A DNA stretch of 64,000 nucleotides from Geminicoccaceae bacterium (GCA_050729115.1 JBOHKK010000001.1:2947-66946), one strand, 5' to 3'; positions 18,564 through 43,998 are shown, numbered from the stretch's first letter. The notes: generated by a model from the sequence alone, not told the origin. A program made the numbers and translations.

Positions 18564-18570
18564 CGCCTCA

Positions 18571-20216
<1,646 letters not shown>

Positions 20217-26834: not shown

Positions 26835-27509
26835 CTACGCCTTGATGTCGACGAGCAGGCCGAAGCCGATCGACCAGAGGCCCAACGCGATCAGCAGCAA
26901 GCCCGTCCAGAACGGCAGCCGCCTCGACAGTCTCGCCAGCCAGTCGAGCATCCGCCGCGCCGGCTCGAGGAGCACCGCCAGGACGAGGGGCAGAGAGAGC
27001 GCGAAGCCGAAGAGCCCGAGAGAGACGAACCCGGCGGCGAGCGTCGCGCCGGCGACGCCGCCGGCCGCCGCCGTGCCAAGCAGGGCGAAGATCAAGGGCG
27101 CTGCGCACGCCGGGATGTTGAGGCCGAACAGGACGCCCAGACCCGTGGAGCCGCCTACCCCGGAGATCCGGTCCAGGCGAGGCCCCAAGGAGATCATCAA
27201 GACGTTCGCCCTGCCCGCGAGGTAGATGGCCCCGATCGCGACATAGACCGCGCCGAGACCGATCCAGGCGCCCTTCTGGAGGCCCAGGAACATCGCGCCG
27301 ACCACGACCGCCAGCATCCCCAGCGCCCCGATGAAGAGCGCGCGGGCGGCGGCAAACGCCATGACCTGCGCGAGCTTGGCCGCCGCCGTCCTGCCCTCGA
27401 GATACTTAATGAACACCAGGCTCGATCCGATCGAGCACGGCTCGATAAAGCCCAACAGGCCGAGCCCGATCGGCAGCACCACAAGGTTGATCAGCCCGAA
27501 GTCGGTCAC
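26835..27509 (-). CDS. CcdA/DsbD-transmembrane-domain family protein (DsbD_2-like)
   Basis: 224 aa, about 6 TM, with two conserved Cys in TM helices (FIEPCSIGS and NIPACAAPL). Confidence 0.75.
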   Translation of the reverse strand: MTDFGLINLVVLPIGLGLLGFIEPCSIGSSLVFIKYLEGRTAAAKLAQVMAFAAARALFIGALGMLAVVVGAMFLGLQKGAWIGLGAVYVAIGAIYLAGRANVLMISLGPRLDRISGVGGSTGLGVLFGLNIPACAAPLIFALLGTAAAGGVAGATLAAGFVSLGLFGFALSLPLVLAVLLEPARRMLDWLARLSRRLPFWTGLLLIALGLWSIGFGLLVDIKA

Positions 27510-28210: not shown

Positions 28211-28241
28211 GATATAGGGTCCGTATCATGGTCCGGAGCAA
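28211..28241 (-). promoter_or_regulatory. putative MerR-type promoter/operator for the merR2-HMA-ccdA-ATPase operon
   Basis: Minus strand: TTGCTC - 19 nt - TATATC. On the plus strand the spacer reads TCCGTATCATGGTCCGGA. This resembles the classical mer operator dyad TCCGTAC-ATGA-GTACGGA, with an imperfect right arm. Confidence 0.4.
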
Positions 28242-28272
28242 GCGGGCGGCGTGGACCGCATATCCCTTGAAA

Positions 28273-28485
28273 TCAACGCACGAAAAATGCCACCGCCGTC
28301 TTCGAGGCAATCGTTGCGTCCAGAAGCCGTCCGTCTCGAACGTGGATCACGCGGTCCGCCAGCCGGGCCAGGTCTTCCGCGTGCGTCACCACGAGCACTG
28401 TCCGCTCCGTCAAGATTTCCGGCAGAAGCCCGTAGATCATCTGACCGGATCGCGAATTGAGATTGCTTCTGCCGACTCAGCCGGA
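28273..28485 (-). pseudogene. remnant of an ABC transporter ATP-binding protein (C-terminal about 65 codons)
   Basis: My own translation: GRSNLNSRSGQMIYGLLPEILTERTVLVVTHAEDLARLADRVIHVRDGRLLD...*. This is the region after Walker B, including the H-loop VTH, of a LolD/MacB-like ATPase. An in-frame TGA lies directly upstream, and no Walker A or signature region is intact. Confidence 0.6.
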
Positions 28486-28826
28486 TCGGCCTTTGGGCCG
28501 AGGCGATGCAGGTCGCAGCGGCTATAAACGATGTCAGCTCGACGGCGGGTGGATGGCGCTCGGCCAGGAAGCGCCTGGCTTTGCGCAGTGAAGGCGGCGC
28601 CCTCCCGCGATCGCCGGGGCGAGGCGCTGGAGCAAGCCTATAGTGACTTCGATGATGTTCTCTCAGGCGGTGACGTGAGTGAACGGCGGCGTCGCCGTCG
28701 CGCTGGCGCTTGGCTGGGCGCAGATCGCCGTCGCAGCAGCTGCCGATCGCGTCATCCGGCCGTCGGACGGAGCACGGGCCGGAAGCGGCCCATTTGAGCA
28801 AGCGGACATCCGCCCGGTACGGCGGA

Positions 28827-29387
28827 TCAGGCGTAGGCCTCATCGCAGCGCCGGGCGGCCACTCGTAGCGTCAGCGCCGTCCCCGCCAGCAGGAAGACGA
28901 ACGCCGCCGGGATCATCAGCCCCATGAGCGTGACCAGCGATGCCGTGACCTGAACGCCCAGCAGGACGAACAGCATGGGCGCGCAGCACGCGCTGCCTGC
29001 GAGCAGCCCCGGCAGACCCGCAAGCACCCCCGTAGCCGGCCTGAGGCCGCAGGCGACGGCGCAGCGTCGGGCGATGCGCACCAGTGCGATCTGGCATCCG
29101 GTGAGCAGGCCGAGCGCCAGGCCGATGGCGATGTTCATCGGCGAGATCAGCCACACCAGGTAAGGCGTCTCCAGGATCGCCACCGCCTCGAACTGGAAAG
29201 GCGCCCGCTCGCGCAGGAGCAGACTCTCCCAGTTCGGCACTATGAAAATCGAGGTCGGGCGAGAGGCACCATCGATCGTCAGATCAGCCACGGCGATCTG
29301 GAACACCGCCAGATATACCAGTGCGATGCCCCAGACGAGGACTTGGCTGGCCGGGTCGGTGAGAAGACGCCGCAGGATCTCACTCAT
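28827..29387 (-). CDS. hypothetical Cys-rich polytopic membrane protein
   Basis: The ATG at 29385..29387 overlaps the DUF3179 gene's stop by 8 nt. Cys sit in TM helices (LLTGCQIAL, RRCAVACGL, AGSACCAPMLF). Confidence 0.6.
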   Translation of the reverse strand: MSEILRRLLTDPASQVLVWGIALVYLAVFQIAVADLTIDGASRPTSIFIVPNWESLLLRERAPFQFEAVAILETPYLVWLISPMNIAIGLALGLLTGCQIALVRIARRCAVACGLRPATGVLAGLPGLLAGSACCAPMLFVLLGVQVTASLVTLMGLMIPAAFVFLLAGTALTLRVAARRCDEAYA

Positions 29388-30441
29388 GAACTGCCGTCTC
29401 GGGATAGAAGGCCGCCCAGGCGAACCACATCGCCTGGAAGGCATTTACTGGCTCGAGGGCATCGCCACCGGACCAGGAGACATTGTAGGGACCGGCGCCG
29501 TCGATCTGCGCGTCTGCCTTCGTGCGTCCGCGGAAGACGTAGCCGGTGTCGAGAATCTTGTCGTAGAGAGCCGTGAAGACCTCGCCGTTCGCCTTGAGCT
29601 CCAGCCGACCGGCCGCGCGCAGGCTCCCGAGTCTAACGGCGACCGCTGCATCCCGGGTGCGTGCGCCGATGAAATCGGATTTTGGCGGGGAGCGGCGGTC
29701 GTCGTGCATCAGCGGGAACATCGTGCTGCTGTCCGGCTCGTAATAGCCCGAGGGCGGGTTGTAGGCGCCGTACGGGTCGCGATGGTAGTTGCGCGCAAAG
29801 CCCGTATCGGTAGACAGCACCTCCGTGTCGGGATAGGCGGCTCGCCAGCGCTGCCAAGTGGTCCAGACCACAGGTCGTTCGACCAGTGCCGTGCCGCGGT
29901 GCGGGCCGCGGATGCCGATCGCGAGCACCTGCGGGAACCAGGTATCGGTGTCGCGGTCGTACATGATCAGGTTGCTGTTCACCAGCCGGCCGGAGACCCC
30001 AAACTCTGTCTGTGCGCGCTCGAAGGCGAGTGCCGTGCCGGTCAGCGGGCAGTAGGTCACGGCAAGCCCGAGGCCGCCCACGGTGTCGTTCACGATCTCA
30101 TGCCAAACCACGACGCGCTGCGGATAGGCGCGGGCGACCCCGTTCTCGACCAGCCCGAACACGATGTCGCCGCCGTCGAGGTAACCGTCAGCATCCGCCG
30201 CCGTCCAGAATTTGGGGTGGTCAATGGCGGGGATCCCGTCCTTACCGGGGCCGCCCGACAGCTTGGCGTTGTCGTAGTCCTGCGGCTGCGACGGCATCAG
30301 GCGTCCTCCGGGGAGCGTGGGGTACGGGGCCGCACCACTCGCAGCCATCGTGGCGAGAGGCAAGCCGGCCAGCGACGCCCAGGAGGCCAGGCCGGCCGCG
30401 CGACCCATCAGCACCCGGCGTGTCAGATCCTCATGAATCAT
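29380..30441 (-). CDS. DUF3179 domain-containing exported protein (Tat-like signal)
   Basis: 353 aa with a GGAGG RBS. DGIPAIDHPKF...VARAYPQRVVVWHEIVNDTVGG..LAVTYCPLTGT...SGRLVNSNLIMYDR.TDTWFPQ matches my memory of the DUF3179 signature. Confidence 0.75.
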   Translation of the reverse strand: MIHEDLTRRVLMGRAAGLASWASLAGLPLATMAASGAAPYPTLPGGRLMPSQPQDYDNAKLSGGPGKDGIPAIDHPKFWTAADADGYLDGGDIVFGLVENGVARAYPQRVVVWHEIVNDTVGGLGLAVTYCPLTGTALAFERAQTEFGVSGRLVNSNLIMYDRDTDTWFPQVLAIGIRGPHRGTALVERPVVWTTWQRWRAAYPDTEVLSTDTGFARNYHRDPYGAYNPPSGYYEPDSSTMFPLMHDDRRSPPKSDFIGARTRDAAVAVRLGSLRAAGRLELKANGEVFTALYDKILDTGYVFRGRTKADAQIDGAGPYNVSWSGGDALEPVNAFQAMWFAWAAFYPETAVHE

Positions 30442-30829
30442 GTGCGCCTCCGTTTCACCTCAGCCCCGTCACCACATTTTATGAAGTGCGCCGCTGCTAC
30501 GCCTCGGCTTGGGCTCCGCTCGATCGAAAAGCTTTGTCGTGATCGCGGCGGTGTCGAGGCCTTCGGCCGCGTTTCACCAACGCTTTACCGGGCGTGACTG
30601 CCCGCCGCCGGTACAACGCCGACGACACTCGGATTCACCTCGTCAGCCGTGCTAATGGCGACTGCCGCCACCATAGCGGGTGGGATTGGCATCCTACCTC
30701 TGTGATTCTCCCGGCGCGTGGAATGGTGAACTGTAGACGCTGAAAGCCCTGCCCGCGTGCCCGATTACCTCGTCGAGCTTCGAAGACGCAAACGGCACTG
30801 GCCTGGGAGACGTTCGGCTTTGGTTGAAC

Positions 30830-31987
30830 ATGGGGGTGGAACGAGTGAGCACAAGCAAGCGTGTCGTCCTCCTGGGTGCCGGGCACGCCCACCTCTACGC
30901 TCTCAAGCGCGCGCGGGAATTTTCGCGCCGAGGGTATGAACTCGTGGTCGTGGCGCCCGACGCGTTCTGGTACTCCGGCCTTGCGACCGGCGTGCTCGGC
31001 GGCAAGTACGCGCCCGAAATGGACCGGGTGGACGTCGGCGTGCTGGTCGCGCGCGGCGGCGGCCGCTTCAGGCAAGACAGAGTCGTCGGCGTTGATGTCG
31101 CTTCTCACACAGTTCACCTCGAAGCATCGCCGCCACTGTCGTATGACGCGCTCTCCATCACGCTCGGCAGCTGCCCGCCGCCGATCCCGGCTGCGAGCAA
31201 AGCGGTCGGCTGCTATTCGGTGAAGCCGATCCGCCGTCTGTGCGAGCTGCGCGCCGATCTCGAGACGCGCTTTGACGATCGTCCCGGTCGCCGGGTTCGA
31301 GTTGCCGTTGCGGGAGGCGGGGTCACTGCGTGCGAGGTCGCCGCCAACGTCGCGGCTCTCGCCGAGGCTCGCGGCGGGCGCACCGACGTGACGGTGCTCG
31401 CGGGCAGCCGCCTCCTCAAGCAGTTGCCGGATCGGGCGGCGCGCCGCGTGGTCGGAGCGCTCGAGCGGCGTGGCGTGCGGTTCTACAGTCCCGCGCGGGT
31501 GGCGGGTGTCGAGACCGGGCGCGCGATCCTCGAGGATGAGCGCGCGGTCGCTTTCGATCTGTTCGTGAACGCCACCGGGCTCAGGCCCTCCCCGATCGTC
31601 CGCGAGATCGGACTGCCGGTCGACGACGAAGGGGCGCTCCTGGTGGACCACAGCCTGCGCTCGATCGCCGATCCGACGGTGCACGGTGGTGGCGATTGCA
31701 TCACGCTTAGCGATGAGAAGCTCGCGAGGATCGGCGTATACGCGATTCGCGAGGCGCCGGTGCTGTACCGCAATCTGTTGGCCGCGCTCGGAAGCGGTGA
31801 AACCACGCGCTTTAAGCCCCAGACCAAGTTCCTCTGGATCATGAACCTGGGCGACGGCACCGGCCTTGCCGCCCGCGGCCGGCTATGGTGGCACGGCCGG
31901 CTCGCCTTTCGACTCAAGGATTGGATCGACCGCCGGTTCCTGCGCGAATACCAGCTGGCCGCCGGCGTTGCCGCGCCGCCTGAGTGA
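30830..31987 (+). CDS. FAD/NAD(P)-dependent pyridine nucleotide-disulfide oxidoreductase family protein (NDH-2 / SelD-N-terminal-like)
   Basis: KRVVLLGAGHAHLY dinucleotide fold, a second fold RVAVAGGGVTACEVA, and a GGGDC motif. The start is ambiguous (TTG 30824, ATG 30830, GTG 30845). Confidence 0.75.
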   Translation: MGVERVSTSKRVVLLGAGHAHLYALKRAREFSRRGYELVVVAPDAFWYSGLATGVLGGKYAPEMDRVDVGVLVARGGGRFRQDRVVGVDVASHTVHLEASPPLSYDALSITLGSCPPPIPAASKAVGCYSVKPIRRLCELRADLETRFDDRPGRRVRVAVAGGGVTACEVAANVAALAEARGGRTDVTVLAGSRLLKQLPDRAARRVVGALERRGVRFYSPARVAGVETGRAILEDERAVAFDLFVNATGLRPSPIVREIGLPVDDEGALLVDHSLRSIADPTVHGGGDCITLSDEKLARIGVYAIREAPVLYRNLLAALGSGETTRFKPQTKFLWIMNLGDGTGLAARGRLWWHGRLAFRLKDWIDRRFLREYQLAAGVAAPPE

Positions 31988-32110: not shown

Positions 32111-34645
32111 TCAGACCACGTAGCGATCCCAACCACCGTAATGTTCGGAGCTCCGCTTGCCGCGCGGCAGACTGAGAGCGATCAGCGCCGCCCCGGCGAG
32201 CACACCGGCCCAGGCGCCGAGCAGGGTGGCGCCCGGCAGCAGCCAAGGCGCGGCGATCAGCCAGAGGCCGAACAGGACATTGATGAAGCGCAAGGGCCGC
32301 GCGACCTCGGCCATGGCGCTCACCGCCACGGTGATGGCGAGCGCGCCGATCAAGTGGTCACTGTCCGCCAGCGGCGGTTCGGTGCCGAAGATCAGGCGGC
32401 TGAACATGAGCCAGACGCCCAAGGCGGCGCTCGCAACCAGCGTCCAAGGCACGGTCACCCCCCAGGCCATCGCTGCCCCCATCGTCCGCAGATCCGCCCC
32501 GAAGCCTGGTCGCTCACTCTCCGTGGCGCCCGGCATGGCGCCGCCCTGGAAGAAGGTACGCCAGAAGGGCTTGCCTGCCCGGTGGCTGTGCAGGAGGAAC
32601 TGCCCCATCGCCACGAGCTCGTCGAGCGCGAAGGGGATCATGATCAGCATAGCGAGCGCTGCGAGCAAACAGAGCGTGCAATAGGTACCGATGACGATTG
32701 GCTGGATGATGATGAAATAGATGCTGACGACGCCGAGCGGCACCACGACGATACCGAACAGGACCACCATCCAGGGCATAGTGCGCCAGCGGCGGCGGTC
32801 GCCCATGACGCCCATCAGCACCTCGAACATGTAGCTCACCGCACCGAGGCCGGCGTCGGCGATCGGCCAGGCCTTCGAAACGTCCGAGGTGATGATGACC
32901 TCGGTGCCGTTCAGGCCGCCTCCACCGGAGAAGAACGGTTCCCAAACCCCGTCGACGTGCCCGAGCTGGTAGGCGGCGAGGGAGCGGGCGATGACGAAGC
33001 CGACAAAGCCAAGCGCGATGATGGGCAGGCGCTGCAGGTAGGTCGATGGGGAGTAGGTCCAGCCGGGCGGGGTATCTGAGCTGTCCATCATCCCTTCGCG
33101 GCTCATGCCCGGCATCATCGGCACCAGGATGGCGAAGGCGATGACCAGCGCGCCGATGAAGGTGTCGTTGGCGTAGACCGCAGCGCTCGGCGACCAGAAG
33201 ACGAGCGGCGCGAACAGGAGCCAGATCCCCACTGCGGTATTCGCCCATTGCGCCCACGCGAAGCGCTGAGAGAGAGACAACGCACCGAATGCCATGATCA
33301 GCAGGCCGCTGGTCAGGTCGCTCCAGGCGGTGAGTGCGCTGCGCAACCCGGGCTCCCACAACCCGCGCTCCTCGGTCACGCGTAGCACGCCTTCGCCGAA
33401 GGCCGCATGGTCGAACGTGCCGAAGACGAACGGACTGGCCGCCAGCCAGGCGCCGAGCATGATGTTGAGAAAGTGCACCCAGAGCATGCCGAGGTGCATC
33501 CGCCGCATCCCCTCCATGTGCTCGCGCACCATCTCCTGATGCTCGAGCGGATCGGCGGTGGGCTGCTCCTGCTGATCCTGCTCGACCCGCTTCGCCGCCA
33601 CCCTGGCGGCGTTCAGCTTGTTCGCCCGATACCAGCCGACCGGATCGGCGTCGAGCGCTGCGACGATTTTCGGCAGCGTCCGCCGCAGGGAATGCTTCGG
33701 CTCCCAGCCGAGGACGCTCCGGGCACGAGAGAGGTCGAGCTCGTAGTGGTCGTCGGCGATCTCGACCATCCACGGCTTGATGAACGGATCCTCCTCCAGA
33801 ATCTCGTCCTGGACCCACGCGCCGGTCCTGGCTAAGGCTTTCGGGACTTGGCGTGTCTCCCACTCCTCATCGTGGATGAGCCAGCCGAGCTCGCGCTGAA
33901 TCTCGCCGAAGCTCATCGTCTCCGGCTCGCCGAGGAGGAGCGGAAGCTCGGGCGGCAGCTCCTTGCGGCGCTCGACGATCCGCAGCAAAGCGTCCGTAAG
34001 GTCGTCGAGATGCAAGAAGGGCTGTCCGGTCCGGAGGTCGCCCGGATAGGAATGACTGATGAGCTTGCGCTCATAGATCCGAGAAATCTGTCGAGCGAGG
34101 AAGGCTGAACGGCAGAGATCGTCGTAGACCCCGGCAGGACGCACCAGAACGGCCGGGATGGAACCGCGCTGCTCTTGGATCAGCCGCTCCGTTCGGATCT
34201 TGGATTCCCGGTACGGGAGCTTTGGGTCGATTGGCCAGTCCTCGTCGATCGGTTGCGCACGTTTGCCGGGCGCATGGACCAACATGGTGCTGGCGAAGAC
34301 AAACTGCTCGACCTCGAAGGATTGCAGGCCGCGCAACAGCCGTTCGGTGCCACGAACGGTGACTTGTTCGTATTTCGGATTTGGCTCACCAGTAAGGTCG
34401 AAATAGGCGGCGAGGTGGATTACCGAAGCAATGCGCTCGCCATAGGCCGTTCGCACCCGCCGAAGCGCGGCCTCGACACTCTCTTCGGAAGTCAGATCGA
34501 TGCAGATGCATTCGGCGGCCGGTGGTGGATGAGGCGGCGTCGCACGGTCCAGGCCGACCAGGGCGAAATGGTTGCCCAGCTTTTCGATCAGCGCCGCGCC
34601 GATGAAACCGCTGCTGCCGGTGACGACTACCGTGTCCTTTTCCAT
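32111..34645 (-). CDS. fusion protein: NAD-dependent epimerase/dehydratase (SDR) domain plus polytopic membrane region with SPW-repeat-like and VKOR-like (CxxC) segments
   Basis: 844 aa. N-terminal VVVTGSSGFIGAALIEKL...YRESK (extended SDR). After about residue 385 there are at least 10 hydrophobic helices. Several carry the W-L-x-x-(S/A)-P-(W/F) pattern seen in the SPW protein at 37239..37670. One segment, ...TEVIITSDVSKAWPIADAGLGAVSYMF...IGTYCTLCLLAALAML, resembles the VKOR loop plus the CxxC helix. Confidence 0.7.
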   Translation of the reverse strand: MEKDTVVVTGSSGFIGAALIEKLGNHFALVGLDRATPPHPPPAAECICIDLTSEESVEAALRRVRTAYGERIASVIHLAAYFDLTGEPNPKYEQVTVRGTERLLRGLQSFEVEQFVFASTMLVHAPGKRAQPIDEDWPIDPKLPYRESKIRTERLIQEQRGSIPAVLVRPAGVYDDLCRSAFLARQISRIYERKLISHSYPGDLRTGQPFLHLDDLTDALLRIVERRKELPPELPLLLGEPETMSFGEIQRELGWLIHDEEWETRQVPKALARTGAWVQDEILEEDPFIKPWMVEIADDHYELDLSRARSVLGWEPKHSLRRTLPKIVAALDADPVGWYRANKLNAARVAAKRVEQDQQEQPTADPLEHQEMVREHMEGMRRMHLGMLWVHFLNIMLGAWLAASPFVFGTFDHAAFGEGVLRVTEERGLWEPGLRSALTAWSDLTSGLLIMAFGALSLSQRFAWAQWANTAVGIWLLFAPLVFWSPSAAVYANDTFIGALVIAFAILVPMMPGMSREGMMDSSDTPPGWTYSPSTYLQRLPIIALGFVGFVIARSLAAYQLGHVDGVWEPFFSGGGGLNGTEVIITSDVSKAWPIADAGLGAVSYMFEVLMGVMGDRRRWRTMPWMVVLFGIVVVPLGVVSIYFIIIQPIVIGTYCTLCLLAALAMLIMIPFALDELVAMGQFLLHSHRAGKPFWRTFFQGGAMPGATESERPGFGADLRTMGAAMAWGVTVPWTLVASAALGVWLMFSRLIFGTEPPLADSDHLIGALAITVAVSAMAEVARPLRFINVLFGLWLIAAPWLLPGATLLGAWAGVLAGAALIALSLPRGKRSSEHYGGWDRYVV

Positions 34646-34690: not shown

Positions 34691-34807
34691 TTAACGGCTG
34701 GACATCAGATATTTGACCAGCGCCGCAGCAGCGAGGATCAGCACGATGAGCACGACAAGGCCGATCGGGCCCATGCCGCCCATCATCCAGCCCATGCCGT
34801 CCATCAT
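34691..34807 (-). CDS. Met-rich single-TM micro-protein (38 aa), paralog of 43244..43369
   Basis: My own translation: MMDGMGWMMGGMGPIGLVVLIVLILAAAALVKYLMSSR*. GGGAGGG RBS 7 nt upstream. It lies between cueR and the 844-aa fusion gene. A second copy with the same architecture sits in the dsbA-ccmG cluster. Confidence 0.6.
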   Translation of the reverse strand: MMDGMGWMMGGMGPIGLVVLIVLILAAAALVKYLMSSR

Positions 34808-34966: not shown

Positions 34967-35446
34967 TCAATCCCATTCCATGCCCGCTTCGCCGACCTCG
35001 GCTCGTCCGCGTCGGGCACCGTTCGCTCGACCGGCTCCGTTCGCCCAGCCACTCTCCTCGGGATCGGCAAGATCCCTCAGGATCGGGCAGTCGGGTCGGT
35101 CGTCACCGTCGCAGTGGTCCGCCAGATGCTTCACCGTATCCCGCAGTGCCTCGAGCTCTGCGATCTTTGCCTGGAGCTCGGCCACGTGGTCGAGGGCGAC
35201 GCGCTTCACCTCGGCGCTGGACCGGTCGCGGTCGCGCCACAATCCCAAAAGCTGCTCGACGCGCTCCACCGAGAACCCAAGACTTCGCGCCCGTTTGATG
35301 AAGGGCAGCGTATGGACGTCCGAGGTGGTGTAGGCGCGATAGTTGCCGGTGGTCCGCCTGGCCTCGGAAATCAGCCCGATGTCCTCGTAGTAGCGGATGG
35401 TCTTCGCCGGAAGGCCAGACGTCCTTGCGGCTTCTCCAATATTCAT
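34967..35446 (-). CDS. cueR: Cu(I)-responsive MerR-family regulator CueR/HmrR
   Basis: MNIGEAARTSGLPAKTIRYYEDIGLI HTH. C-terminal metal loop CDGDDRPDC (C-8-C, as in CueR). GGAAGGAGG RBS. Confidence 0.88.
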   Translation of the reverse strand: MNIGEAARTSGLPAKTIRYYEDIGLISEARRTTGNYRAYTTSDVHTLPFIKRARSLGFSVERVEQLLGLWRDRDRSSAEVKRVALDHVAELQAKIAELEALRDTVKHLADHCDGDDRPDCPILRDLADPEESGWANGAGRANGARRGRAEVGEAGMEWD

Positions 35447-35714
35447 GGATCCTCCTTCCCTTAGGGCTGTCGGGCGTACAGTTCACAAGGTGCGACCAAT
35501 TGATGCCTGTGCTGAGGCCGCTGAAGGCCGTGTCTGCGCGCAATCACTGCGCACCAGGCGATTGTCATGGCCGCCCTTTCGAGATGCGTCCGCATGATGC
35601 GCACCTGAGTCAACGACGTGGCGATTGATTCCTGCTCGTCGTCAGAGGTGAAATCGATCCTGCCGCGATGCCAGACGTCCTGCTTCTCCGTTCCGGCCCG
35701 GCTCGGGAGAAAGA

Positions 35715-35741
35715 TTGACCTTCCAGTGAGTGGAAGGTCAA
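35715..35741. promoter_or_regulatory. CueR-type operator/promoter, perfect palindrome TTGACCTTCC-N7-GGAAGGTCAA
   Basis: Read directly: ttgaccttccagtgagtggaaggtcaa. It matches the E. coli PcopA architecture (TTGACC, 19-bp spacer containing CCTTCC-N7-GGAAGG). Read on the minus strand, the -10 would be AATCTT (35711..35716), pointing toward cueR. Confidence 0.7.
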
Positions 35742-35756: not shown

Positions 35757-35787
35757 TTGACCTTCCTCCGGCTGGAAGGTCGATGGT
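35757..35787. promoter_or_regulatory. second CueR-type operator/promoter, TTGACCTTCC-N7-GGAAGGTCGA
   Basis: Read directly: ttgaccttcctccggctggaaggtcga, 42 bp (about four helical turns) from the first box. Read on the plus strand, TTGACC - 19 nt - GATGGT. Confidence 0.65.
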
Positions 35788-37238: not shown

Positions 37239-37670
37239 TCACCGGCTCGTCGCGGACGCCGTCTTACGGATGTCGTACAGCTCCCATGCCGCCAGAGCGA
37301 AGATCAGCAGGCCCACGACGAGCGTATTCCACGTCGCCACGGCATTGCCGCTGAATCCCAGCACCCATGGTGAGATGACGAGCCACAGGCCGATGAGGAG
37401 ATTCGTCCATTCCTCCCACGCGTGCGCTCCGAGGAGCCCGGCGGCGGCGATCGCCGCAACGACAACGCCGAAGATCCAGGCGTTCCATGCGGCCGCCACA
37501 ACGACACTGCCGGCAGCGGCCGCCTCGGCGGGAGTGCCGACGGTAGTGGCTCCGGAGGCGAACTGCAGGACCCAGGGCGAAATGAACAGCCAGATCGCCA
37601 GGATCAGGTTCGTCCAATCCTGCCAGCGGTTGGCATTGGTGCGCTGCGTCATGAAGCGATTTCGCGCCAT
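37239..37670 (-). CDS. SPW repeat protein
   Basis: ATG at 37668..37670 with a GGAGG RBS, 143 aa. Two repeats, WTNLILAIWLFISPWVLQF and WTNLLIGLWLVISPWVLGF. Confidence 0.8.
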   Translation of the reverse strand: MARNRFMTQRTNANRWQDWTNLILAIWLFISPWVLQFASGATTVGTPAEAAAAGSVVVAAAWNAWIFGVVVAAIAAAGLLGAHAWEEWTNLLIGLWLVISPWVLGFSGNAVATWNTLVVGLLIFALAAWELYDIRKTASATSR

Positions 37671-38315: not shown

Positions 38316-38816
38316 ATGCAGACGGTGGTGATCACCGGCGGCAGCGCGGGGATCGGCATAGCCGTAGCCGAGAGTTGCGCGGGCCGGGGCTGCCGCATCG
38401 GCCTGATCGCGCGCGGCGAGGAGCGGCTGGAGGATGCTGGTCGGGCTCTGCGCGAGCTTGGCTCGCCCGCGGTGGAGGTGGCGTCCGCAGACGCTTCCGA
38501 AGCTGCCGAGGTCGAGGCGGCCGCCGACCGGTTCGAGCAGGCGCTCGGCCGGATCGGCGTCTGGGTCAACGCCGCGATGACCACCGTCTACTCGCCGTTC
38601 GTCGATATGAGCGCGGAGGAGTACGACCGGGTCACACGGGTCGTCTATCTCGGCGCGGTCAACGGCACGCGCGCGGCGCTGAAGCGCACGCGCCCCCGGC
38701 GCCCGGGTGCGATCGTCAACGTCGGGTCCGGCGTCACGGGATCACGCGCGAGCGCCACCCTGCTCACTAACTACGATGGCTTTGGCACTCCCGACGAGCG
38801 GGCGGTGATCAGCTAA
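38316..38816 (+). pseudogene. short-chain dehydrogenase/reductase, 3'-truncated
   Basis: MQTVVITGGSAGIGIAVAE...VWVNAAM...IVNVGSG is a normal SDR N-terminal two-thirds. After NVGS the sequence diverges and the catalytic YxxxK region is absent. GC content drops right after it. Confidence 0.6.
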
Positions 38817-40097: not shown

Positions 40098-40221
40098 CGC
40101 CTGACCGTCTGCTCCCGCAGACGACGGCGTCGAGGCCTCCGCGCACCTCAGACGCACGGAGGTGACTTGGCTCTGCCACGCGCGCCAAAGCTGGCCGTAT
40201 CCAAGGGTGAGTTTCCTCGAG

Positions 40222-41685
40222 ATGAAGTCTGCCAGATTCGGACATCTCTCGCGCCGGTCCTTGCTGGCTGCGAGCGGCGCAGCTGCTCTCGCGGCGGTGG
40301 TACGGCCTTGGCCGCTCCGGGCCGGCTCGCCCATCGAGTATCGCCTTGTTGCAAGTCCGGGACGCGCGCATCTGGTCGGCGCGCCATATCCAGAGACCGC
40401 GGTCTGGTCGTACAACGGGACGGTGCCAGGCCCGGAGATCCGGGTGCGCCAGGGCGAACGGCTGCGCGTCGTCGTCGAAAACCGGCTCGGCGAGGAGACG
40501 ACGGTGCACTGGCACGGCCTCCGCGTGCCGAATCCGATGGACGGCGTGCCCGACCTCACCCAGCCGCCGATCGCGCCGGGCGATGAGTTCATCTACGAGT
40601 TCGATGCGCCGGACGCCGGAACCTACTGGTACCACCCGCACCAACGGAGCTTCGAGCAGGTCGGACGCGGGCTTTACGGGCCGCTGATCGTCGAGGAGCG
40701 GCAGCCGATCAAGGTCGACCGCGAGATCACCTGGGTGCTGGACGACTGGCGCCTTGAGCGTGATGCGCAGATCAGCGGCGGCTTCGGCAACTTCATGGAC
40801 GTCAGCCACGGCGGCCGGCTGGGTAACACGGTCACTGTCAACGGCCGCATTCTCGATAGCTTCGCGGTGCGCGCCGGCGAGCGTCTGCGGCTGCGGCTCA
40901 TCAATGCCGCGAACGCGCGCATCTTCGGGTTGGCGTTCCAGGACCACCGACCAACGGTCATCGCGCTCGACGGCCAACCGGTAGAGCCGCATGAGCCGGC
41001 GGAGGGCCGCGTCGTCCTCGGCCCCGCGATGCGGGCCGATCTCGTGGTCGACATGAGCGGCAGGCCGGATAAGCGGTTTACCGTGGCTGACACGTTCTAC
41101 CGCGACCGCGAGTACCGCCTGCTCGATCTCGTTTATGGCAAGGAGCCGCCGCTCCGTGAGCACCCGCTCGATGCGCCGGTGCACCTTGCCGCCAACACCA
41201 TGCCCGAGCCGGATCTAGCAACAGCCGAGCGGCACCAGGTGACCTTCGGCGGCGGCATGATGGGCATGATGATGGCTGGTGGAATGATGGGTGGCGGGAT
41301 GATGGGCGACATGATGAGGGGCACGATGAGGGGCACGACAGGCATGATGACGGGCCGCGGCGTCTGGACCGTCAACGGCGTGTCGGCGACCGGACACACC
41401 CCCAAGCCTTTCCTGACCCTGCGGCGGAACGACTCGTACGTCCTCGCCATGCACAACAACACGTTCTTCCATCATGGGATTCATCTGCACGGACACTCGT
41501 TCCGTGTGATCGCGCGGGACGGCGGACCGACGCGCTATCGCGAGTGGCAGGACACCGTGCTCATGGCGGCGGATGAGCGCGTCGAGATCGCTTTCGTGGC
41601 CGACAATCCCGGCGACTGGATGATCCACTGTCACATGTTGGAGCACCAGGCGGGCGGGATGATGGGCGTGATCCGGGTGGTCTGA
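40222..41685 (+). CDS. multicopper oxidase (CopA/PcoA/CueO-like) with Met-rich insert, Tat signal
   Basis: MKSARFGHLSRRSLLAASGAAALA is a twin-Arg signal. Copper ligands are HWHG, WYHPH and HCHMLEHQAGGMM. The Met-rich insert is GGGMMGMMMAGGMMGGGMMGDMMRGTMRGTTGMMTG (about 41248..41358). Confidence 0.9.
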   Translation: MKSARFGHLSRRSLLAASGAAALAAVVRPWPLRAGSPIEYRLVASPGRAHLVGAPYPETAVWSYNGTVPGPEIRVRQGERLRVVVENRLGEETTVHWHGLRVPNPMDGVPDLTQPPIAPGDEFIYEFDAPDAGTYWYHPHQRSFEQVGRGLYGPLIVEERQPIKVDREITWVLDDWRLERDAQISGGFGNFMDVSHGGRLGNTVTVNGRILDSFAVRAGERLRLRLINAANARIFGLAFQDHRPTVIALDGQPVEPHEPAEGRVVLGPAMRADLVVDMSGRPDKRFTVADTFYRDREYRLLDLVYGKEPPLREHPLDAPVHLAANTMPEPDLATAERHQVTFGGGMMGMMMAGGMMGGGMMGDMMRGTMRGTTGMMTGRGVWTVNGVSATGHTPKPFLTLRRNDSYVLAMHNNTFFHHGIHLHGHSFRVIARDGGPTRYREWQDTVLMAADERVEIAFVADNPGDWMIHCHMLEHQAGGMMGVIRVV

Positions 41686-41699
41686 GGGAAGACGGCGAG

Positions 41700-42428
41700 A
41701 TGCTTGCCAGAGCCTCAATGATCGGGGCCATCGCGGCCGGCGTAATGGTGATCATTGGCGGCGCATCCGCGGCGCAGGGCGATCCCGAACAGGGCGAGCA
41801 GGTCTTTCGCGCCTGTATCGCCTGTCATTCGCTAGAGCCGGGCAAGCATCGCACCGGGCCGAGCTTGGCCGGCATCTGGGGCGAGAACGCTGGGACGGTC
41901 GAGGGCTTCTCCCGATATTCGCCGGCGCTCAAATCGACGGACGTGACGTGGACCGCAGAGACGCTCGACGCCTGGCTCGCTGATCCTCGGGCGTCCATTC
42001 CGGGGAACCGGATGATCTTCCCGGGTCTCAAGGATTCACAGGCGCGGGCGGACCTGATTGCATACCTGAAAGTCGCTGCGGCCGGAGGCGACGGTCCGCC
42101 GGACACCGCGGGCCAAGACGGGATGATGGGCGGCGGCATGGCAAGATCCGACATGCCGGACCTAAAGGCCATCGGTCCGGACCAGCAGGTGACGGCCATC
42201 CGCTATTGCGGCGACACCTATCACGTCACGACCGCTGCGGGTGAGACGCTTGCGGGTGAGACGCTCGCTTTTTGGGAGTTCAATCTCCGCTTCAAGACCG
42301 ACTCGAGCGAGAAGGGACCCAGTGAGCGTCGCCCGGCGCTGTTGCCGGCCAGCTCCATGGGCGACCGGGCGTTCGTCATCTTTGCCCATCCTTCGGAAAT
42401 CAGCTCCTTCATCGAGAAGCGCTGCTGA
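41700..42428 (+). CDS. class-I c-type cytochrome with C-terminal extension of unknown function
   Basis: Signal/anchor, then the haem site CIACH and a distal Met region (GNRMIFPGL) like cytochrome c2. This is followed by about 110 extra residues. The gene contains a 2 x 15-bp tandem duplication. Confidence 0.8.
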   Translation: MLARASMIGAIAAGVMVIIGGASAAQGDPEQGEQVFRACIACHSLEPGKHRTGPSLAGIWGENAGTVEGFSRYSPALKSTDVTWTAETLDAWLADPRASIPGNRMIFPGLKDSQARADLIAYLKVAAAGGDGPPDTAGQDGMMGGGMARSDMPDLKAIGPDQQVTAIRYCGDTYHVTTAAGETLAGETLAFWEFNLRFKTDSSEKGPSERRPALLPASSMGDRAFVIFAHPSEISSFIEKRC

Positions 42429-42461
42429 AAGGGGCCAACGAGCCAAGGACTGGTGGATACG

Positions 42462-43244
42462 ATGCGACGACTTCCAGTGATCTTTGTAGCGGCTCTGCTT
42501 TGCATGGCTGCGGGCGCCACCTGGTTTGCGGTCGATGCGGCTGCGCAGCAAAGGGCACCCGTTTCGGGCACCTCCGAAAGGCCTGTGGAACTCGATGAAT
42601 TCGAGCAGCGTGTGCGCGACTTCCTGCTCGAGCATCCGCAAGTGATCATGGACGCCTTACAGGTGCTGCAGGAGCGACAGCGCGCGGCCGAGGCCGACGA
42701 TATTAAGCGCACCATCGCGGCGCGGCGAGACGAGATCTTCAATGATCCGAACGCTCCGGTAGGTGGCCATCCCGCCGGCGACGCCACCGTCGTCGAGTTC
42801 TTCGACTACAACTGCCCCTACTGCCGCAGGGTGGCGCCCACTCTGACCGAGGTCGAAGAGGCCGATGCCAATCTGCGCGTCCTGTACAAGGAGTTCCCGA
42901 TCCTTGGGGCCGGTTCTCGATTCGCCGCCCGGGCGGCGCTCGCGGCGCACAAACAGGGGAAATACCTCCCCTTCCATACCGCCCTGATGCAGGCGCAAGA
43001 GCAGCTTGACGAGCTCAACGTCATGAAAATCGCGCAGGCGGTCGGGCTGGACGCCGAACGCCTGCGGCAGGACATGCAGGATGCCGCGATCGGGGAAGCG
43101 ATCGCGCGCAACCTCCAGCTCGCCGAAGCGCTCGGGATCACCGGGACTCCGAGCTTCGTGATCGGCGACCAGATCGTCCCTGGCGCGGTCGGTCGCAGCA
43201 GGCTGGAGCGGCTGATCGCCGAGGCGCGGGACCGGGGAACCTGA
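42462..43244 (+). CDS. DsbA-family thiol:disulfide oxidoreductase
   Basis: Signal peptide MRRLPVIFVAALLCMAAGA. Thioredoxin motif FFDYNCPYCRR. GTPSFVIG near the C-terminus. Confidence 0.85.
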   Translation: MRRLPVIFVAALLCMAAGATWFAVDAAAQQRAPVSGTSERPVELDEFEQRVRDFLLEHPQVIMDALQVLQERQRAAEADDIKRTIAARRDEIFNDPNAPVGGHPAGDATVVEFFDYNCPYCRRVAPTLTEVEEADANLRVLYKEFPILGAGSRFAARAALAAHKQGKYLPFHTALMQAQEQLDELNVMKIAQAVGLDAERLRQDMQDAAIGEAIARNLQLAEALGITGTPSFVIGDQIVPGAVGRSRLERLIAEARDRGT

Positions 43245-43369
43245 TGATGGACTGCATGATGATGATGGGCGGATGGCCGGGCATGCTGGCGGGCGGCCTC
43301 GTAGTTCTGCTGCTCGTTGTGCTGCTGGTTCTGAGTGCCGCCGCCCTGGTCAAGTACCTCCGGAGTTGA
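43244..43369 (+). CDS. Met-rich single-TM micro-protein (41 aa), paralog of 34691..34807
   Basis: My own translation: MMDCMMMMGGWPGMLAGGLVVLLLVVLLVLSAAALVKYLRS*. The ATG overlaps the dsbA stop (TGATG). The ORF ends 11 nt before ccmG. It shares the Met-rich head, one TM and the AAALVKYL tail with the other copy. Confidence 0.6.
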   Translation: MMDCMMMMGGWPGMLAGGLVVLLLVVLLVLSAAALVKYLRS

Positions 43370-43380
43370 GGGTGGAGCTC

Positions 43381-43998
43381 ATGCAATCGCGGCAGGAATC
43401 GGCACAGGCGCTGGCCAACACAGACGGAGTCCTTGCTCCTGCCTTGGGGGCGACAGCTCGCCATCAGCGGATACGAGGGATTTTCCTGCTGCCGCTGCTG
43501 GTGTTTGCCGGGCTTGCCGTAGCCCTCGGCTGGGGGTTGACGCGTAGCCCCGAGGTGCTCCCTTCCCCGCTGATCGGCAAGCCGGTGCCCGAGTTCAGCC
43601 TGCCCCCGGTGAAAGGCCGAACGCTCGGTCTCTCGAGCGCCGACCTCAAGGGCGAAGTCTCGCTCGTCAACGTCTTCGCCTCCTGGTGCACCGCCTGCCG
43701 CTATGAGCATCCGGTGTTCATGCGGATCAAGGAGGAAGGCGTCGTGCCGATCCACGGCATCAACTACAAGGACCGCCCCGACGACGCTGCCAACTGGCTG
43801 GACGATCTAGGCGATCCTTACACCCGCACGGGCGCCGATCGCGACGGCCGCGTCTCGATCGAATGGGGCGTGTACGGCGTGCCGGAGACCTTCGTGATCG
43901 ATCGCGAGGGGCGGATCGTCTTCAAGCAGGTGGGGCCGGTCCTGCCCGAGATCTGGCGGGACAAGATCGCACCACTGATCGAGGAGCTGCGCCGGTGA
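43381..43998 (+). CDS. ccmG: periplasmic thiol:disulfide oxidoreductase DsbE/CcmG family
   Basis: ATG at 43381 with GAGGGTGGAG upstream. Membrane anchor, then VNVFASWCTACRYEHP and GVYGVPETFVID motifs. Confidence 0.8.
   Translation: MQSRQESAQALANTDGVLAPALGATARHQRIRGIFLLPLLVFAGLAVALGWGLTRSPEVLPSPLIGKPVPEFSLPPVKGRTLGLSSADLKGEVSLVNVFASWCTACRYEHPVFMRIKEEGVVPIHGINYKDRPDDAANWLDDLGDPYTRTGADRDGRVSIEWGVYGVPETFVIDREGRIVFKQVGPVLPEIWRDKIAPLIEELRR

What the first reader, a model, noticed from the sequence alone, without database searches (positions are those of the whole stretch)
32111..34645. 844-aa fusion of a cytoplasmic NAD(P)-binding SDR domain to an SPW-like / VKOR-like membrane domain lacking the VKOR loop cysteines
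The N-terminal 340 or so residues are a standard extended-SDR (epimerase/dehydratase) fold, with GSSGFIGAAL and YxxxK.

The remaining 460 or so residues are polytopic membrane. Helices carry the W-L-x-x-(S/A)-P-(W/F) pattern of SPW-repeat proteins. One block looks like VKOR: ...TSDVSKAWPIADAGLGAVSY... followed by a TM helix with CTLC.

The two loop cysteines that shuttle electrons in characterised VKORs appear to be absent. Only the CxxC remains.

A nucleotide-binding domain tethered to a quinone/disulfide-type membrane module is an unusual way to wire cytoplasmic NAD(P)H to the membrane or periplasm. The gene lies downstream of cueR and a Met-rich micro-ORF. A free-standing SPW protein is 2.6 kb away.
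Basis: partly seen in the sequence, partly recalled or inferred. Interest (0 to 1): 0.7.

Follow-up and report, generated by a model that had tools for sequence, protein, structure and literature searches.

The report
Copper-island SDR fused to cysteine-poor VKOR-like membrane protein
This is a real, widespread but unstudied bacterial gene that joins a cytoplasmic NAD-dependent enzyme to a 12-helix membrane module related to vitamin K epoxide reductase; it travels with copper-resistance genes and carries a methionine cluster that probably binds copper, so it may be an overlooked part of copper defence.

Summary
ORF 32111-34645 (-) encodes 844 aa: an extended SDR (1-345) followed by 12 TM helices arranged SPW(4)-VKOR-like(4)-SPW(4). 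The only membrane cysteines are C656/C659.

It is not an assembly artefact. At least 585 species genomes and 135 plasmids encode relatives, and a natural split version exists (separate SDR gene 45 bp upstream of the membrane gene).

- The whole family lacks the VKOR loop cysteines.
- Two fused sister clades also lack the CxxC yet keep an intact SDR catalytic triad.
- No cofactor-binding domain that could carry electrons across the membrane was detected.

What tracks the copper context is a set of 12 invariant methionines, 11 of them on the predicted cytoplasmic side. Copper-island clades have them and non-copper clades do not. 58 of 80 Met-cluster loci carry copper-type genes (copper ATPase, multicopper oxidase, RND pump or Csp) within 10 kb, against 0 of 7 control loci.

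In the window, a perfect CueR operator lies upstream of cueR, a Met-rich small ORF and this gene.

Best reading (confidence 0.35): a copper-induced, Cu(I)-binding membrane oxidoreductase acting on a lipid-soluble substrate. Its function has not been characterised.

The parts
32111..34645 (-). Whole gene, 844 aa: SDR-SPW-VKOR-like-SPW fusion. Identical to MGH6894961.1 from a Geminicoccaceae MAG.
33611..34645 (-). Residues 1-345: cytoplasmic extended SDR. It has G10xxG13xxG16, D33 (suggesting NAD(H) preference) and the catalytic residues T120/Y145/K149.
   Evidence: Pfam. Foldseek matches UDP-hexose 4-epimerases at E~1e-12 and TMt 0.75-0.80 over about 345 columns. These residues are invariant in 54 sequences from two clades.
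33485..33610 (-). Residues 346-387: low-confidence linker followed by an amphipathic His/Met-rich helix (H369, M372, H376, M377, M380, M383, H384, M387) just before TM1.
   Evidence: AF2 pLDDT is below 50 for 354-365 and a helix is predicted for 366-386. M380 is in 100% of copper-clade sequences and 0% of clade B.
33128..33484 (-). Residues 388-506: N-terminal SPW four-helix unit, with W400-L-A-A-S-P405-F and A479-P480-L motifs.
33083..33124 (-). Residues 508-521: VPMMPGMSREGMMD, a Met motif at the predicted cytoplasmic end of TM4.
   Evidence: M510, M511, M514, M519 and M520 are in 100% of copper-island clades A1 and A2 and 0-3% of clade B. The same motif occurs in free-standing modules from copper islands.
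32579..33040 (-). Residues 536-689: VKOR-like four-helix bundle. The periplasmic loop 561-596 has no cysteine. T581 and S587 sit where the loop cysteines are expected (inferred from the spacing pattern).
   Evidence: Pfam. Foldseek's best PDB hits are VKORs (6wvb, 4nv2; probability 0.97, E 0.29-0.85). Also.
32669..32680 (-). C656-T-L-C659: the CxxC at the periplasmic end of VKOR-like TM4. A weak hhalign match aligns it to human C132/C135.
   Evidence: Present in all clade A1 sequences and absent from A2 and B.
32168..32446 (-). Residues 734-826: C-terminal SPW four-helix unit (A799-P800-W801).
   Evidence: best SPW stretch in Pfam
34691..34807 (-). 38-aa small ORF MMDGMGWMMGGMG-TM-KYLMSSR: a Met-rich single-pass membrane protein, 45 bp upstream of the fusion.
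   Evidence: Called as a gene in public assemblies. Homologues lie immediately upstream of the fusion in at least 12 other loci, in both the CxxC and STPA clades. No Pfam or NCBIfam family.
34967..35446 (-). cueR, the Cu(I)-responsive MerR-family regulator. It is the first gene of the likely cueR / small ORF / fusion operon.
   Evidence: TIGR02044, 169.9 bits against a cut-off of 147.4
35705..35741 (-). CueR-type promoter: TTGACC, then a 19-bp spacer holding the perfect dyad CCTTCC-N7-GGAAGG, then the -10 region. It lies about 270 bp upstream of cueR.
   Evidence: No terminator-like site is predicted between it and the end of the fusion gene on the - strand.
35757..35785 (+). A second, divergent CueR-type promoter (TTGACCTTCC-N7-GGAAGGTC).
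37239..37670 (-). Free-standing SPW protein, 143 aa.
   Evidence: Pfam SPW, E 7.7e-26; gene call
38316..38816 (+). Truncated (166 aa) classical SDR of the PRK07109 type. Full-length copies sit next to the fusion or the membrane module in other loci.

Best explanation
The gene is a genuine member of a large, uncharacterised family. In it, a catalytically intact NAD(H)-type extended SDR sits on the cytoplasmic face of a 12-helix SPW-VKOR-like-SPW membrane module.

Shown:
- the architecture;
- an N-in topology with the VKOR loop and CxxC on the periplasmic side;
- family-wide loss of the VKOR loop cysteines;
- a natural split SDR + membrane gene pair;
- residence in Cu/Hg islands;
- a perfect CueR operator upstream of cueR, the small ORF and this gene;
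- a clade-specific set of 12 invariant methionines plus histidines, 11 of the 12 on the predicted cytoplasmic side.

Inferred:
- The gene is copper-induced through CueR.
- The Met/His cluster binds cytoplasmic Cu(I), either as a switch or as a membrane-face sink or hand-over site, possibly working with the periplasm-facing Met tail of the co-encoded small protein.
- The SDR uses NAD(H) to reduce or oxidise a lipid-soluble substrate held by the membrane module. A quinone is the most plausible candidate, which would make this a lipid-phase protective reaction under copper stress.

It does not work as a VKOR/DsbB-type disulfide relay. The retained CxxC is an accessory feature of this sub-clade.
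For: Architecture and fold.

Real and widespread: at least 585 genomes; 135 plasmids.

Functional coupling of SDR and membrane module:
- a split gene pair in L091, with a 45-bp gap on the same strand;
- independent fusions of the module to classical adh_short SDRs, P0399 and P0420;
- classical SDR genes adjacent to the fusion.

SDR competence: T120, Y145, K149 and the glycine motif are invariant across clades.

Topology: summed over the family alignment, predicted cytoplasmic loops hold 17.8 K+R on average and periplasmic loops 2.9.

Copper link:
- island gene content;
- 58 of 80 loci have a hit to a P1B-ATPase, multicopper-oxidase, RND-pump (CusA-seed) or Csp seed within 10 kb, against 0 of 7 loci of relatives without the Met cluster;
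- CueR at 169.9 bits, above its cut-off;
- three perfect CueR dyads in this 64-kb window, against 8 in 1.4 Mb of other loci.

Met cluster: M380, M510, M511, M514, M519, M520, M611, M614, M626, M669, M680 and M747 are in 100% of sequences in both copper clades and 0-20% of clade B. Methionine makes up 5.6% and 5.2% of the membrane part in the copper clades, against 2.1% in clade B. The motif also marks free-standing modules from copper islands.

Quinone/redox theme (weak): VKOR fold; D597 aligns with human N80; 1-Cys peroxiredoxin lies directly downstream in about 9 loci; terminal-oxidase clusters sit next to non-copper members.
Against: - No substrate is identified.
- The canonical VKOR quinone pocket lies near the periplasmic face, far from the cytoplasmic SDR site, and I could not measure distances because no model coordinates were available.
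- Methionine is the usual periplasmic Cu(I) ligand rather than a cytoplasmic one.
- The exact CueR dyad is rare upstream of homologues in other taxa, so CueR control is shown by sequence only for this window.
- Recurrent neighbours include sugar enzymes (GH15, glucose-1-dehydrogenase-like SDR, Gfo/Idh/MocA). These fit a sugar substrate at least as well as a quinone.
- The RND and P-type ATPase seeds are not copper-specific, so some of the 58 loci may carry other pumps.
- The context statistics are not corrected for phylogeny, and the control set is small (7 loci).
Confidence: 0.35

Rival explanations
1. Cu(I) relay or export. The membrane module passes Cu(I) from the cytoplasmic Met/His cluster through membrane-embedded methionines to the periplasmic CxxC and to the Met-rich tail of the co-encoded small protein, which then hands it to CusF, CusB or the multicopper oxidase. 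The SDR would be regulatory, acting as an NAD(H) sensor.
For: - The clade-specific methionines include intramembrane positions M611, M614, M626, M669 and M747.
- The Met-rich single-pass small ORF is a conserved upstream partner in at least 12 other loci.
- The fusion often lies directly next to RND (CusA-type seed), CusB or multicopper-oxidase genes.
- From general knowledge, CusA offers a precedent for a methionine relay starting in the cytoplasm.
Against: - There is no evident energy coupling.
- The catalytic triad of the SDR is invariant, which argues that the SDR is an enzyme rather than a sensor.
- Sister clades with neither Met nor Cys keep the whole architecture, so the core function is not copper transport.
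- The membrane model has no significant structural match to any known transporter.
Confidence: 0.15
2. Sugar or glycolipid enzyme. The extended SDR acts on a sugar moiety, such as a glucoside, trehalose-derived compound or lipid-linked sugar, that the membrane module presents or transports. It would work with the adjacent GH15 trehalase-like hydrolase and sugar dehydrogenases. The copper-island copies would remodel the envelope or compatible solutes under stress.
For: - The SDR fold matches sugar-nucleotide epimerases and dehydratases best.
- A cassette of fusion, glucose-1-dehydrogenase-like or PRK07109-type SDR, and GH15 occurs in L045, L055, L059, L061 and L075. GH15 overlaps the start of the free-standing module in L090.
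- A Gfo/Idh/MocA gene lies directly upstream in S. meliloti pSymB (next to a sugar ABC transporter and a LacI regulator) and in Sphingomonas lenta.
Against: - These neighbours occur in a minority of loci (GH15 in 7 of 80) and could simply share a stress regulon.
- No NCBIfam sugar-enzyme model approaches its cut-off.
- The idea explains neither the Met cluster nor the VKOR-like pocket.
Confidence: 0.15
3. Electrons from cytoplasmic NAD(P)H are delivered through the protein to the CxxC/quinone site, to reduce or oxidise periplasmic targets.
For: An NAD-binding domain and a periplasm-facing CxxC lie in one polypeptide. CcdA-like genes are more frequent near CxxC-bearing copies: 13 of 52 against 1 of 26, Fisher p = 0.027, not corrected for phylogeny.
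Against: No transmembrane redox cofactor domain is detected, and an SDR only transfers hydride. The CxxC is missing from two fused clades that keep the SDR. The loop cysteines that mediate exchange with partner proteins are missing family-wide.
Confidence: 0.1
4. A stripped-down DsbB/VKOR-type oxidase. It would make disulfides from quinone and pass them directly from the CxxC to the island's ScsC-like DsbA.
For: The island encodes a ScsC-like DsbA (42453-43244) and a TlpA-like redoxin (43273-43998). The CxxC is conserved in about 61 of 71 diverse family members.
Against: Published VKOR analysis treats both loop cysteines as fully conserved and catalytic (PMC4555120), and here they are absent. 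In solved VKORs the CxxC is buried under the loop cap (general knowledge). This model also gives no role to the SDR.
Confidence: 0.05

Closest known systems
Bacterial and vertebrate VKOR (PF07884; Synechococcus VKOR 3KP9/4NV2, human VKORC1 6WV3)
   Same: A four-helix bundle recognised by the Pfam model (E 7e-22). VKOR structures are the best Foldseek PDB hits (probability 0.97). The orientation is canonical, with the CxxC at the periplasmic start of TM4. An Asp (D597) aligns where human N80 binds the quinone (weak alignment).
   Different: - No loop cysteine pair; T581 and S587 occupy those positions by pattern.
- No fused or obligatory Trx-like partner.
- The bundle is flanked on both sides by SPW four-helix units.
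- It is fused to, or operon-coupled with, an SDR.
- The CxxC itself is lost in sister clades.
- The published VKOR phylogeny removed sequences lacking the conserved residues (PMC4555120), so this branch was not covered.
Extended SDRs (PF01370; GalE-like epimerases, 3-beta-HSD-like and HpnA-like reductases)
   Same: Rossmann fold plus a C-terminal substrate domain, GxxGxxG, and the S/T-Y-K triad. TM-score normalised to the target is 0.75-0.80 against UDP-hexose 4-epimerases.
   Different: Tethered to a 12-TM domain. No curated NCBIfam subfamily reaches its cut-off; the best is HpnA at 54 bits against 368. The substrate is unknown.
SPW repeat proteins (PF03779)
   Same: Two SPW four-helix units with the Ser/Ala-Pro-aromatic helix kink. 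A free-standing SPW protein lies 2.6 kb away.
   Different: Here the SPW units bracket a VKOR-like bundle. No SPW protein has a known function. The co-occurrence of SPW with VKOR or Epimerase domains has been noted only as a Pfam architecture (PMC8078820).
Methionine-based Cu(I) sites of copper-resistance proteins (CusA relay, CopA entry platform, Ctr1 Mets motifs, PcoC/CopC, multicopper-oxidase Met-rich loops). This is a functional analogy drawn from general knowledge.
   Same: Clustered, invariant Met (+His) residues that appear only in copper-island clades. The gene is co-encoded with CueR, P1B-ATPases, RND pumps and multicopper oxidases.
   Different: No homology to any of these. The cluster faces the cytoplasm and sits next to an NAD-dependent enzyme. 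Copper binding has not been tested.

Membership tests
VKOR family (PF07884) | Match to the family HMM and a four-helix bundle fold | tested here: met
   Pfam E 7.2e-22, 78.4 bits against a cut-off of 27.5, covering model positions 2-133 of 134. Foldseek's top PDB hits are VKORs at probability 0.97, although E-values are only 0.29-0.85.
VKOR family (PF07884) | Active-site CxxC at the start of TM4 | tested here: met
   C656-T-L-C659, aligned to human C132/C135 by a weak hhalign match (probability 7.5%). Absent from sister clades A2 and B.
VKOR family (PF07884) | A pair of loop cysteines between TM1 and TM2 that shuttle electrons (human C43/C51, Synechococcus C50/C56) | tested here: not met
   No Cys in residues 561-596. 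None in 71 diverse family members. 3 of 438 members have a single Cys and none has a pair. The requirement is taken from PMC4555120.
VKOR family (PF07884) | Conserved loop Ser/Thr (human S57) | tested here: inconclusive
   S587 and S590 are highly conserved (66 and 55 of 71), but their register relative to S57/S62 rests only on a motif comparison.
VKOR family (PF07884) | Thioredoxin-fold redox partner, fused or as a separate DsbA | tested here: inconclusive
   No Trx domain in the protein. A ScsC-like DsbA lies 8 kb away in the island but is not a conserved neighbour.
VKOR family (PF07884) | Quinone or epoxide reduction coupled to disulfide formation | not testable with these tools
   Needs biochemistry.
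Extended SDR (PF01370 and relatives) | N-terminal GxxGxxG Rossmann motif | tested here: met
   G10, G13 and G16 are invariant in 54 sequences.
Extended SDR (PF01370 and relatives) | Catalytic Ser/Thr-Tyr-Lys (YxxxK) | tested here: met
   T120, Y145 and K149 are invariant across clades A and B.
Extended SDR (PF01370 and relatives) | C-terminal substrate-binding extension (two-domain fold) | tested here: met
   Foldseek aligns about 340-350 columns to GalE-type structures, with TMt 0.75-0.80.
Extended SDR (PF01370 and relatives) | Nucleotide-sugar substrate | not testable with these tools
   No equivalog model reaches its cut-off.
SPW repeat (PF03779) | HMM match, with the Ser/Ala-Pro-aromatic motif in the first helix of each two-helix repeat | tested here: met
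   E 2.8e-24 in 3 stretches. The motifs are S404-P405-F406, A479-P480-L481 and A799-P800-W801.
CueR regulon member | Adjacent CueR orthologue, plus a MerR-type promoter with a 19-bp spacer containing the CCTTCC-N7-GGAAGG dyad | tested here: met
   TIGR02044, 169.9 bits, above the 147.4 cut-off. The sequence TTGACCTTCCactcactGGAAGGTC lies at 35741-35715. No terminator is predicted before the gene.
CueR regulon member | Copper-dependent transcription | not testable with these tools
   Needs expression data.

The most novel reading that the evidence does not exclude
The family is a new kind of copper-defence determinant: a Cu(I)-gated, NAD(H)-driven reductase embedded in the membrane. It would regenerate a lipid-soluble antioxidant, reducing quinone to quinol in the way FSP1 and vitamin K do in animal cells, or detoxify oxidised lipids, thereby protecting the inner membrane from copper-catalysed lipid peroxidation. 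It would work with the adjacent 1-Cys peroxiredoxin and with NAD(P)H-generating trehalase and glucose-dehydrogenase genes. On this reading the VKOR fold has been repurposed from thiol chemistry to hydride chemistry.
Probability: 0.12. Interest if true: 0.85.

Novelty: new variant of a known kind. Interest (0 to 1): 0.62.

Why it matters
Copper-resistance islands are intensively studied, yet this gene appears in none of the papers found in the held library. It is present in at least 585 species-representative genomes and 135 plasmids, 84 of them mobilisable or conjugative, and often sits directly beside RND (Cus-type), multicopper-oxidase or copper-ATPase genes.

It also shows that the VKOR fold has a large branch that has given up the electron-shuttle cysteines, and in places the CxxC as well, while recruiting NAD-dependent dehydrogenases at least twice. 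That points to a chemistry other than disulfide generation.

The clade-specific cytoplasm-facing methionine cluster and the conserved Met-rich small-protein partner give concrete, mutable targets. Cultured carriers exist in which the hypothesis can be tested directly: Halomonas sp. LBP4, Chelativorans intermedius, Aquibium oceanicum, Paraburkholderia fungorum and, for the non-copper form, Sinorhizobium meliloti 1021.

Tried and rejected
- **Assembly-indel artefact:** rejected. The identical protein is on 3 contigs and hundreds of full-length homologues exist.
- **Canonical VKOR/DsbB relay:** rejected because the loop cysteines are absent family-wide.
- **CxxC as the copper-relevant feature:** rejected. 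The S-T-P-A clade also sits in copper islands.
- **PDB sequence searches for VKOR:** the single sequence and the family profile found no VKOR. This says little, because human VKORC1 against Synechococcus VKOR only reaches E~0.5.
- **hhalign against human VKORC1:** gave a low-probability alignment (7.5%). I used it only as a guide to residue equivalence.
- **Foldseek for the SPW units:** nothing significant.
- **An obligate protein partner:** a Pfam census of 150 flanking genes found none. The commonest families were CBS (12), 1-Cys peroxiredoxin (7) and Cation_efflux (6).
- **The exact CueR dyad upstream of homologues elsewhere:** rare, 8 in 1.4 Mb.
- **Literature searches:** combinations of VKOR, SPW, epimerase and copper, and the S. 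meliloti locus tags, found no functional study.
Full report
**1. Observation**

The ORF at 32111..34645 (- strand) exists as described: ATG start, 844 aa.

Pfam finds three families:
- Epimerase PF01370 at residues 6-229 (E 6.5e-24);
- VKOR PF07884 at 541-673 (E 7.2e-22, nearly the whole model);
- SPW PF03779 in three stretches (E 2.8e-24).

The SDR motifs are G10xxG13xxG16, D33, S119/T120 and Y145xxxK149. Cysteines occur only at 46, 48 and 178 (SDR) and at 656 and 659 (CTLC), so the VKOR TM1-TM2 loop has none.

AlphaFold2 gives a mean pLDDT of 83 for the full length (pTM 0.57) and 84 for the membrane part (pTM 0.80). It predicts 12 TM helices arranged as SPW(4)-VKOR-like(4)-SPW(4).

Foldseek matches the N-terminal domain to UDP-hexose 4-epimerases (E~1e-12, TMt 0.75-0.80, about 345 columns). 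It matches the central bundle best to VKOR structures (6wvb, 4nv2 and 6wv3; probability up to 0.97 but E >= 0.29). Nothing matches the SPW units.

Across the family alignment, predicted cytoplasmic loops hold 17.8 K+R on average and periplasmic loops 2.9. The topology is therefore N-in, the VKOR domain has its canonical orientation, and the CxxC faces the periplasm.

**2. A real gene and a large family**

- The identical protein is on three independent contigs. It is MGH6894961.1 from a Geminicoccaceae MAG.
- The 120 best database hits are all full length, share the architecture and are 66-79% identical. They come from Alpha-, Beta- and Gammaproteobacteria.
- 135 plasmid records carry one, and 84 of those are mobilisable or conjugative.

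The membrane module on its own is commoner still. A search of the 50%-identity representatives gave 1925 clusters at E <= 1e-3 and 310 at E <= 1e-30. Most of the best hits are free-standing proteins of 420-510 aa, and only 8 of the best 150 carry the SDR at full length.

In locus L091, a free-standing module is preceded by a separate 352-aa extended-SDR gene, 45 bp upstream on the same strand. This is a natural split form of the fusion. Other members are fused to classical adh_short SDRs (P0399, P0420). The SDR-membrane partnership is therefore functional and has arisen more than once.

Public annotation is generic, and in places wrong ('DNA polymerase III subunit epsilon'). The only literature mention found notes the Pfam co-occurrence of SPW with VKOR or Epimerase domains (PMC8078820).

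**3. The VKOR-like domain is not a standard VKOR**

Published analysis treats C43, C51, S57, C132 and C135 as universally conserved and catalytic. That study also removed sequences lacking them from its phylogeny (PMC4555120).

In this family the loop is cysteine-free. None of 71 diverse members has a loop Cys. Of 438 members, 3 have a single stray Cys and none has a pair.

Compared with the Synechococcus motif C50-TGDGG-C56-DLVLSS, the window's T581-EVIIT-S587-DVS590 places Thr and Ser where the two cysteines would be. This is an inference from the spacing pattern.

A weak hhalign match (probability 7.5%) aligns C656/C659 with human C132/C135, D597 with N80 and A663 with Y139.

The CxxC is kept in about 61 of 71 diverse modules. 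Among the fused proteins it is dispensable. One large clade (B; Sphingomonadales, Litorimonas, Ramlibacter and others) has W-S-T-L-A-L, and another (A2) has S-T-P-A. Both keep the SDR triad invariant.

**4. Copper context**

In the window the gene lies in a Cu/Hg island. The island holds:
- a multicopper oxidase, a cytochrome c, a ScsC-like DsbA and a TlpA-like redoxin (40162-43998);
- two P1B-ATPases;
- a MerR-HMA-CcdA-like operon;
- merR, merT and merP;
- a transposase.

Upstream on the same strand are cueR (TIGR02044, above its cut-off) and a 38-aa Met-rich single-pass small ORF.

About 270 bp upstream of cueR lies a textbook CueR promoter: TTGACC, then a 19-bp spacer holding the perfect dyad CCTTCC-N7-GGAAGG. 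A second one points the other way, and a third lies at 44713. No terminator-like site separates the promoter from the fusion gene. Copper-dependent co-transcription is therefore inferred, not shown.

Elsewhere the gene recurs beside copper genes:
- Halomonas: MerR, a YHS/HMBD ATPase, the fusion, then a multicopper oxidase;
- Nitrosovibrio: Csp, the fusion, an OEP gene, then a multicopper oxidase;
- Luteimonas: CusBA, a bufferin cluster, then the fusion.

Among the 80 closest genome loci, 58 have a hit to a P1B-ATPase, multicopper-oxidase, RND-pump (CusA-seed) or Csp seed within 10 kb. Among loci of 15 kb or more, the figure is 45 of 55. None of the 7 loci of relatives without the Met cluster has any such hit. 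The RND and P-type ATPase seeds are not copper-specific, so some hits may be other pumps.

**5. What tracks with copper: a methionine cluster**

I aligned 51 A1 sequences (with the CxxC), 26 A2 (S-T-P-A) and 30 B. Twelve methionines are in 100% of sequences in both copper clades and 0-20% of clade B: M380, M510, M511, M514, M519, M520, M611, M614, M626, M669, M680 and M747. H835 and H369/H376 show a similar pattern.

The membrane part is 5.6% and 5.2% Met in the copper clades, against 2.1% in clade B. The SDR part is not enriched.

By the topology above, 11 of the 12 lie at the cytoplasmic interface or in the inner half of the membrane. They sit in the pre-TM1 amphipathic helix, the VPMMPGMSxEGMMD motif after TM4, the cytoplasmic ends of VKOR TM2 and TM3, and the inner part and extension of TM4.

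The same motif marks free-standing modules found in copper islands (P0404, P0490). It is missing from the split form beside a cytochrome oxidase cluster (P0393) and from the S. meliloti pSymB homologue, which keeps the CxxC.

The Met-rich small ORF lies immediately upstream of the fusion in at least 12 other loci, from both copper clades. Its charge distribution predicts a Met tail facing the periplasm.

**6. Other recurrent neighbours**

- A classical SDR (glucose-1-dehydrogenase-like, or PRK07109-type) plus a GH15 trehalase-like gene lies directly downstream in L045, L055, L059, L061 and L075. GH15 overlaps or flanks the free-standing modules in L090 and L092. The window keeps a truncated PRK07109-type SDR at 38316-38816.
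- 1-Cys peroxiredoxin lies directly downstream in about nine A2 loci.
- CBS-domain proteins account for 12 of the 150 flanking genes.
- A Gfo/Idh/MocA oxidoreductase lies directly upstream in S. meliloti and Sphingomonas lenta.
- The same COX1-COX2-DUF2231-UPF0093-CtaG cluster sits next to a split form and to a clade-B fusion.
- CcdA-like genes are enriched near CxxC-bearing copies (13 of 52 against 1 of 26, p = 0.027, not corrected for phylogeny).

No single partner is obligatory.

**7. Interpretation**

Shown:
- the architecture and topology;
- family-wide loss of the loop cysteines;
- that the CxxC is dispensable;
- genetic coupling of the SDR and the membrane module;
- residence in copper islands;
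- the CueR operator;
- the clade-specific Met cluster.

Inferred:
- induction by CueR;
- Cu(I) binding by the Met/His cluster;
- an NAD(H)-dependent reaction on a lipid-soluble substrate held by the membrane module.

I commit to the model of a copper-induced, Cu(I)-binding membrane oxidoreductase at 0.35 overall. My estimates for the sub-claims are:

| Sub-claim | Estimate |
|---|---|
| Real gene and family | ~0.98 |
| Copper-stress role | ~0.75 |
| Met cluster binds Cu(I) | ~0.5 |
| Quinone is the substrate | ~0.2 |

**8. Novelty**

The domains are known and the architecture is visible in databases. No functional study was found. The copper association, the cysteine-less VKOR branch, the Met cluster and the small-ORF partnership appear to be undescribed in the searched literature.

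I rate it a new variant of a known kind, with interest 0.62.

Noticed in passing
window 34691-34807 (-); also L010, L016, L018, L020, L028, L029, L033, L035, L045, L062, L081, L086: A family of 38-60 aa Met-rich single-pass proteins (MMDG..MM..G-TM-ALVKYLRS) with no Pfam or NCBIfam model. It forms a conserved gene pair with the fusion and also occurs elsewhere in copper islands.
   Followed up: partly
window 35719-35737, 35761-35779, 44713-44731: Three perfect CueR-type dyads (CCTTCC-N7-GGAAGG). Two sit back to back between cueR and a divergent HWE histidine-kinase gene. The third lies upstream of a 151-aa ORF (44771-45226) that has no Pfam family.
   Followed up: partly
window 38316-38816 (+): A truncated (166 aa) PRK07109-type classical SDR. 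Full-length copies form a cassette of fusion, SDR and GH15 (trehalase-like) in other loci, so this looks like a remnant of that cassette.
   Followed up: partly
window 26835-27509 (-): A 224-aa membrane ORF (motif FIEPCSIG) between an HMA gene and a P1B-ATPase. It has no Pfam hit on record, but its seed hits the same ORF as the DsbD_TM/CcdA seed in locus L035. It is likely a CcdA-like thiol-reductant transporter inside a MerR-HMA-ATPase operon.
   Followed up: partly
window 28226-30441 (-): A DUF3179 protein followed by two membrane proteins of unknown function (186 and 205 aa; one has a GSACCAP motif) with no family assignment. They lie between the fusion and the MerR-HMA operon.
   Followed up: no
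window 30824-31987 (+): Divergent from the fusion: a Pyr_redox_2 flavoprotein of the TIGR03169 'N-terminal to SelD' type (239 bits, below the 310 cut-off), resembling NDH-2 or SQR. It is found next to the fusion only in this island (1 of 80 other loci).
   Followed up: partly
window 40162-43998 (+): A block of multicopper oxidase, cytochrome c, ScsC-like DsbA (with the ScsC_N domain) and TlpA-like redoxin: a copper-linked periplasmic thiol-redox set in the same island.
   Followed up: partly
L091 8433-13756 and L094 10601-15720: The same alternative oxidase cluster (about 105 aa, COX1 of about 830 aa, COX2, DUF2231, UPF0093, Caa3_CtaG) lies next to a split SDR + membrane pair and next to a clade-B fusion. 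It links the non-copper forms to a haem-copper oxidase.
   Followed up: no
L095 (S. meliloti 1021 pSymB 16483-19023): A model organism carries a fused homologue (CAC48415.1, 48.7% identity) that keeps the CxxC but has no Met cluster. It lies downstream of a Gfo/Idh/MocA gene, a LacI regulator and a sugar ABC transporter, and near katC. It is a tractable entry point to the family's core function.
   Followed up: partly
public records of P0093, P0303, P0305, P0347, P0377, H64: Several family members are named 'DNA polymerase III subunit epsilon' in public databases, an apparent annotation error that has been propagated.
   Followed up: no
plasmid hits H67-H69 (Halalkalicoccus, Halocatena, Natrinema): Haloarchaeal plasmids carry the free-standing SPW-VKOR-like-SPW module at 43-46% identity, so the module crosses the bacteria-archaea boundary.
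   Followed up: no
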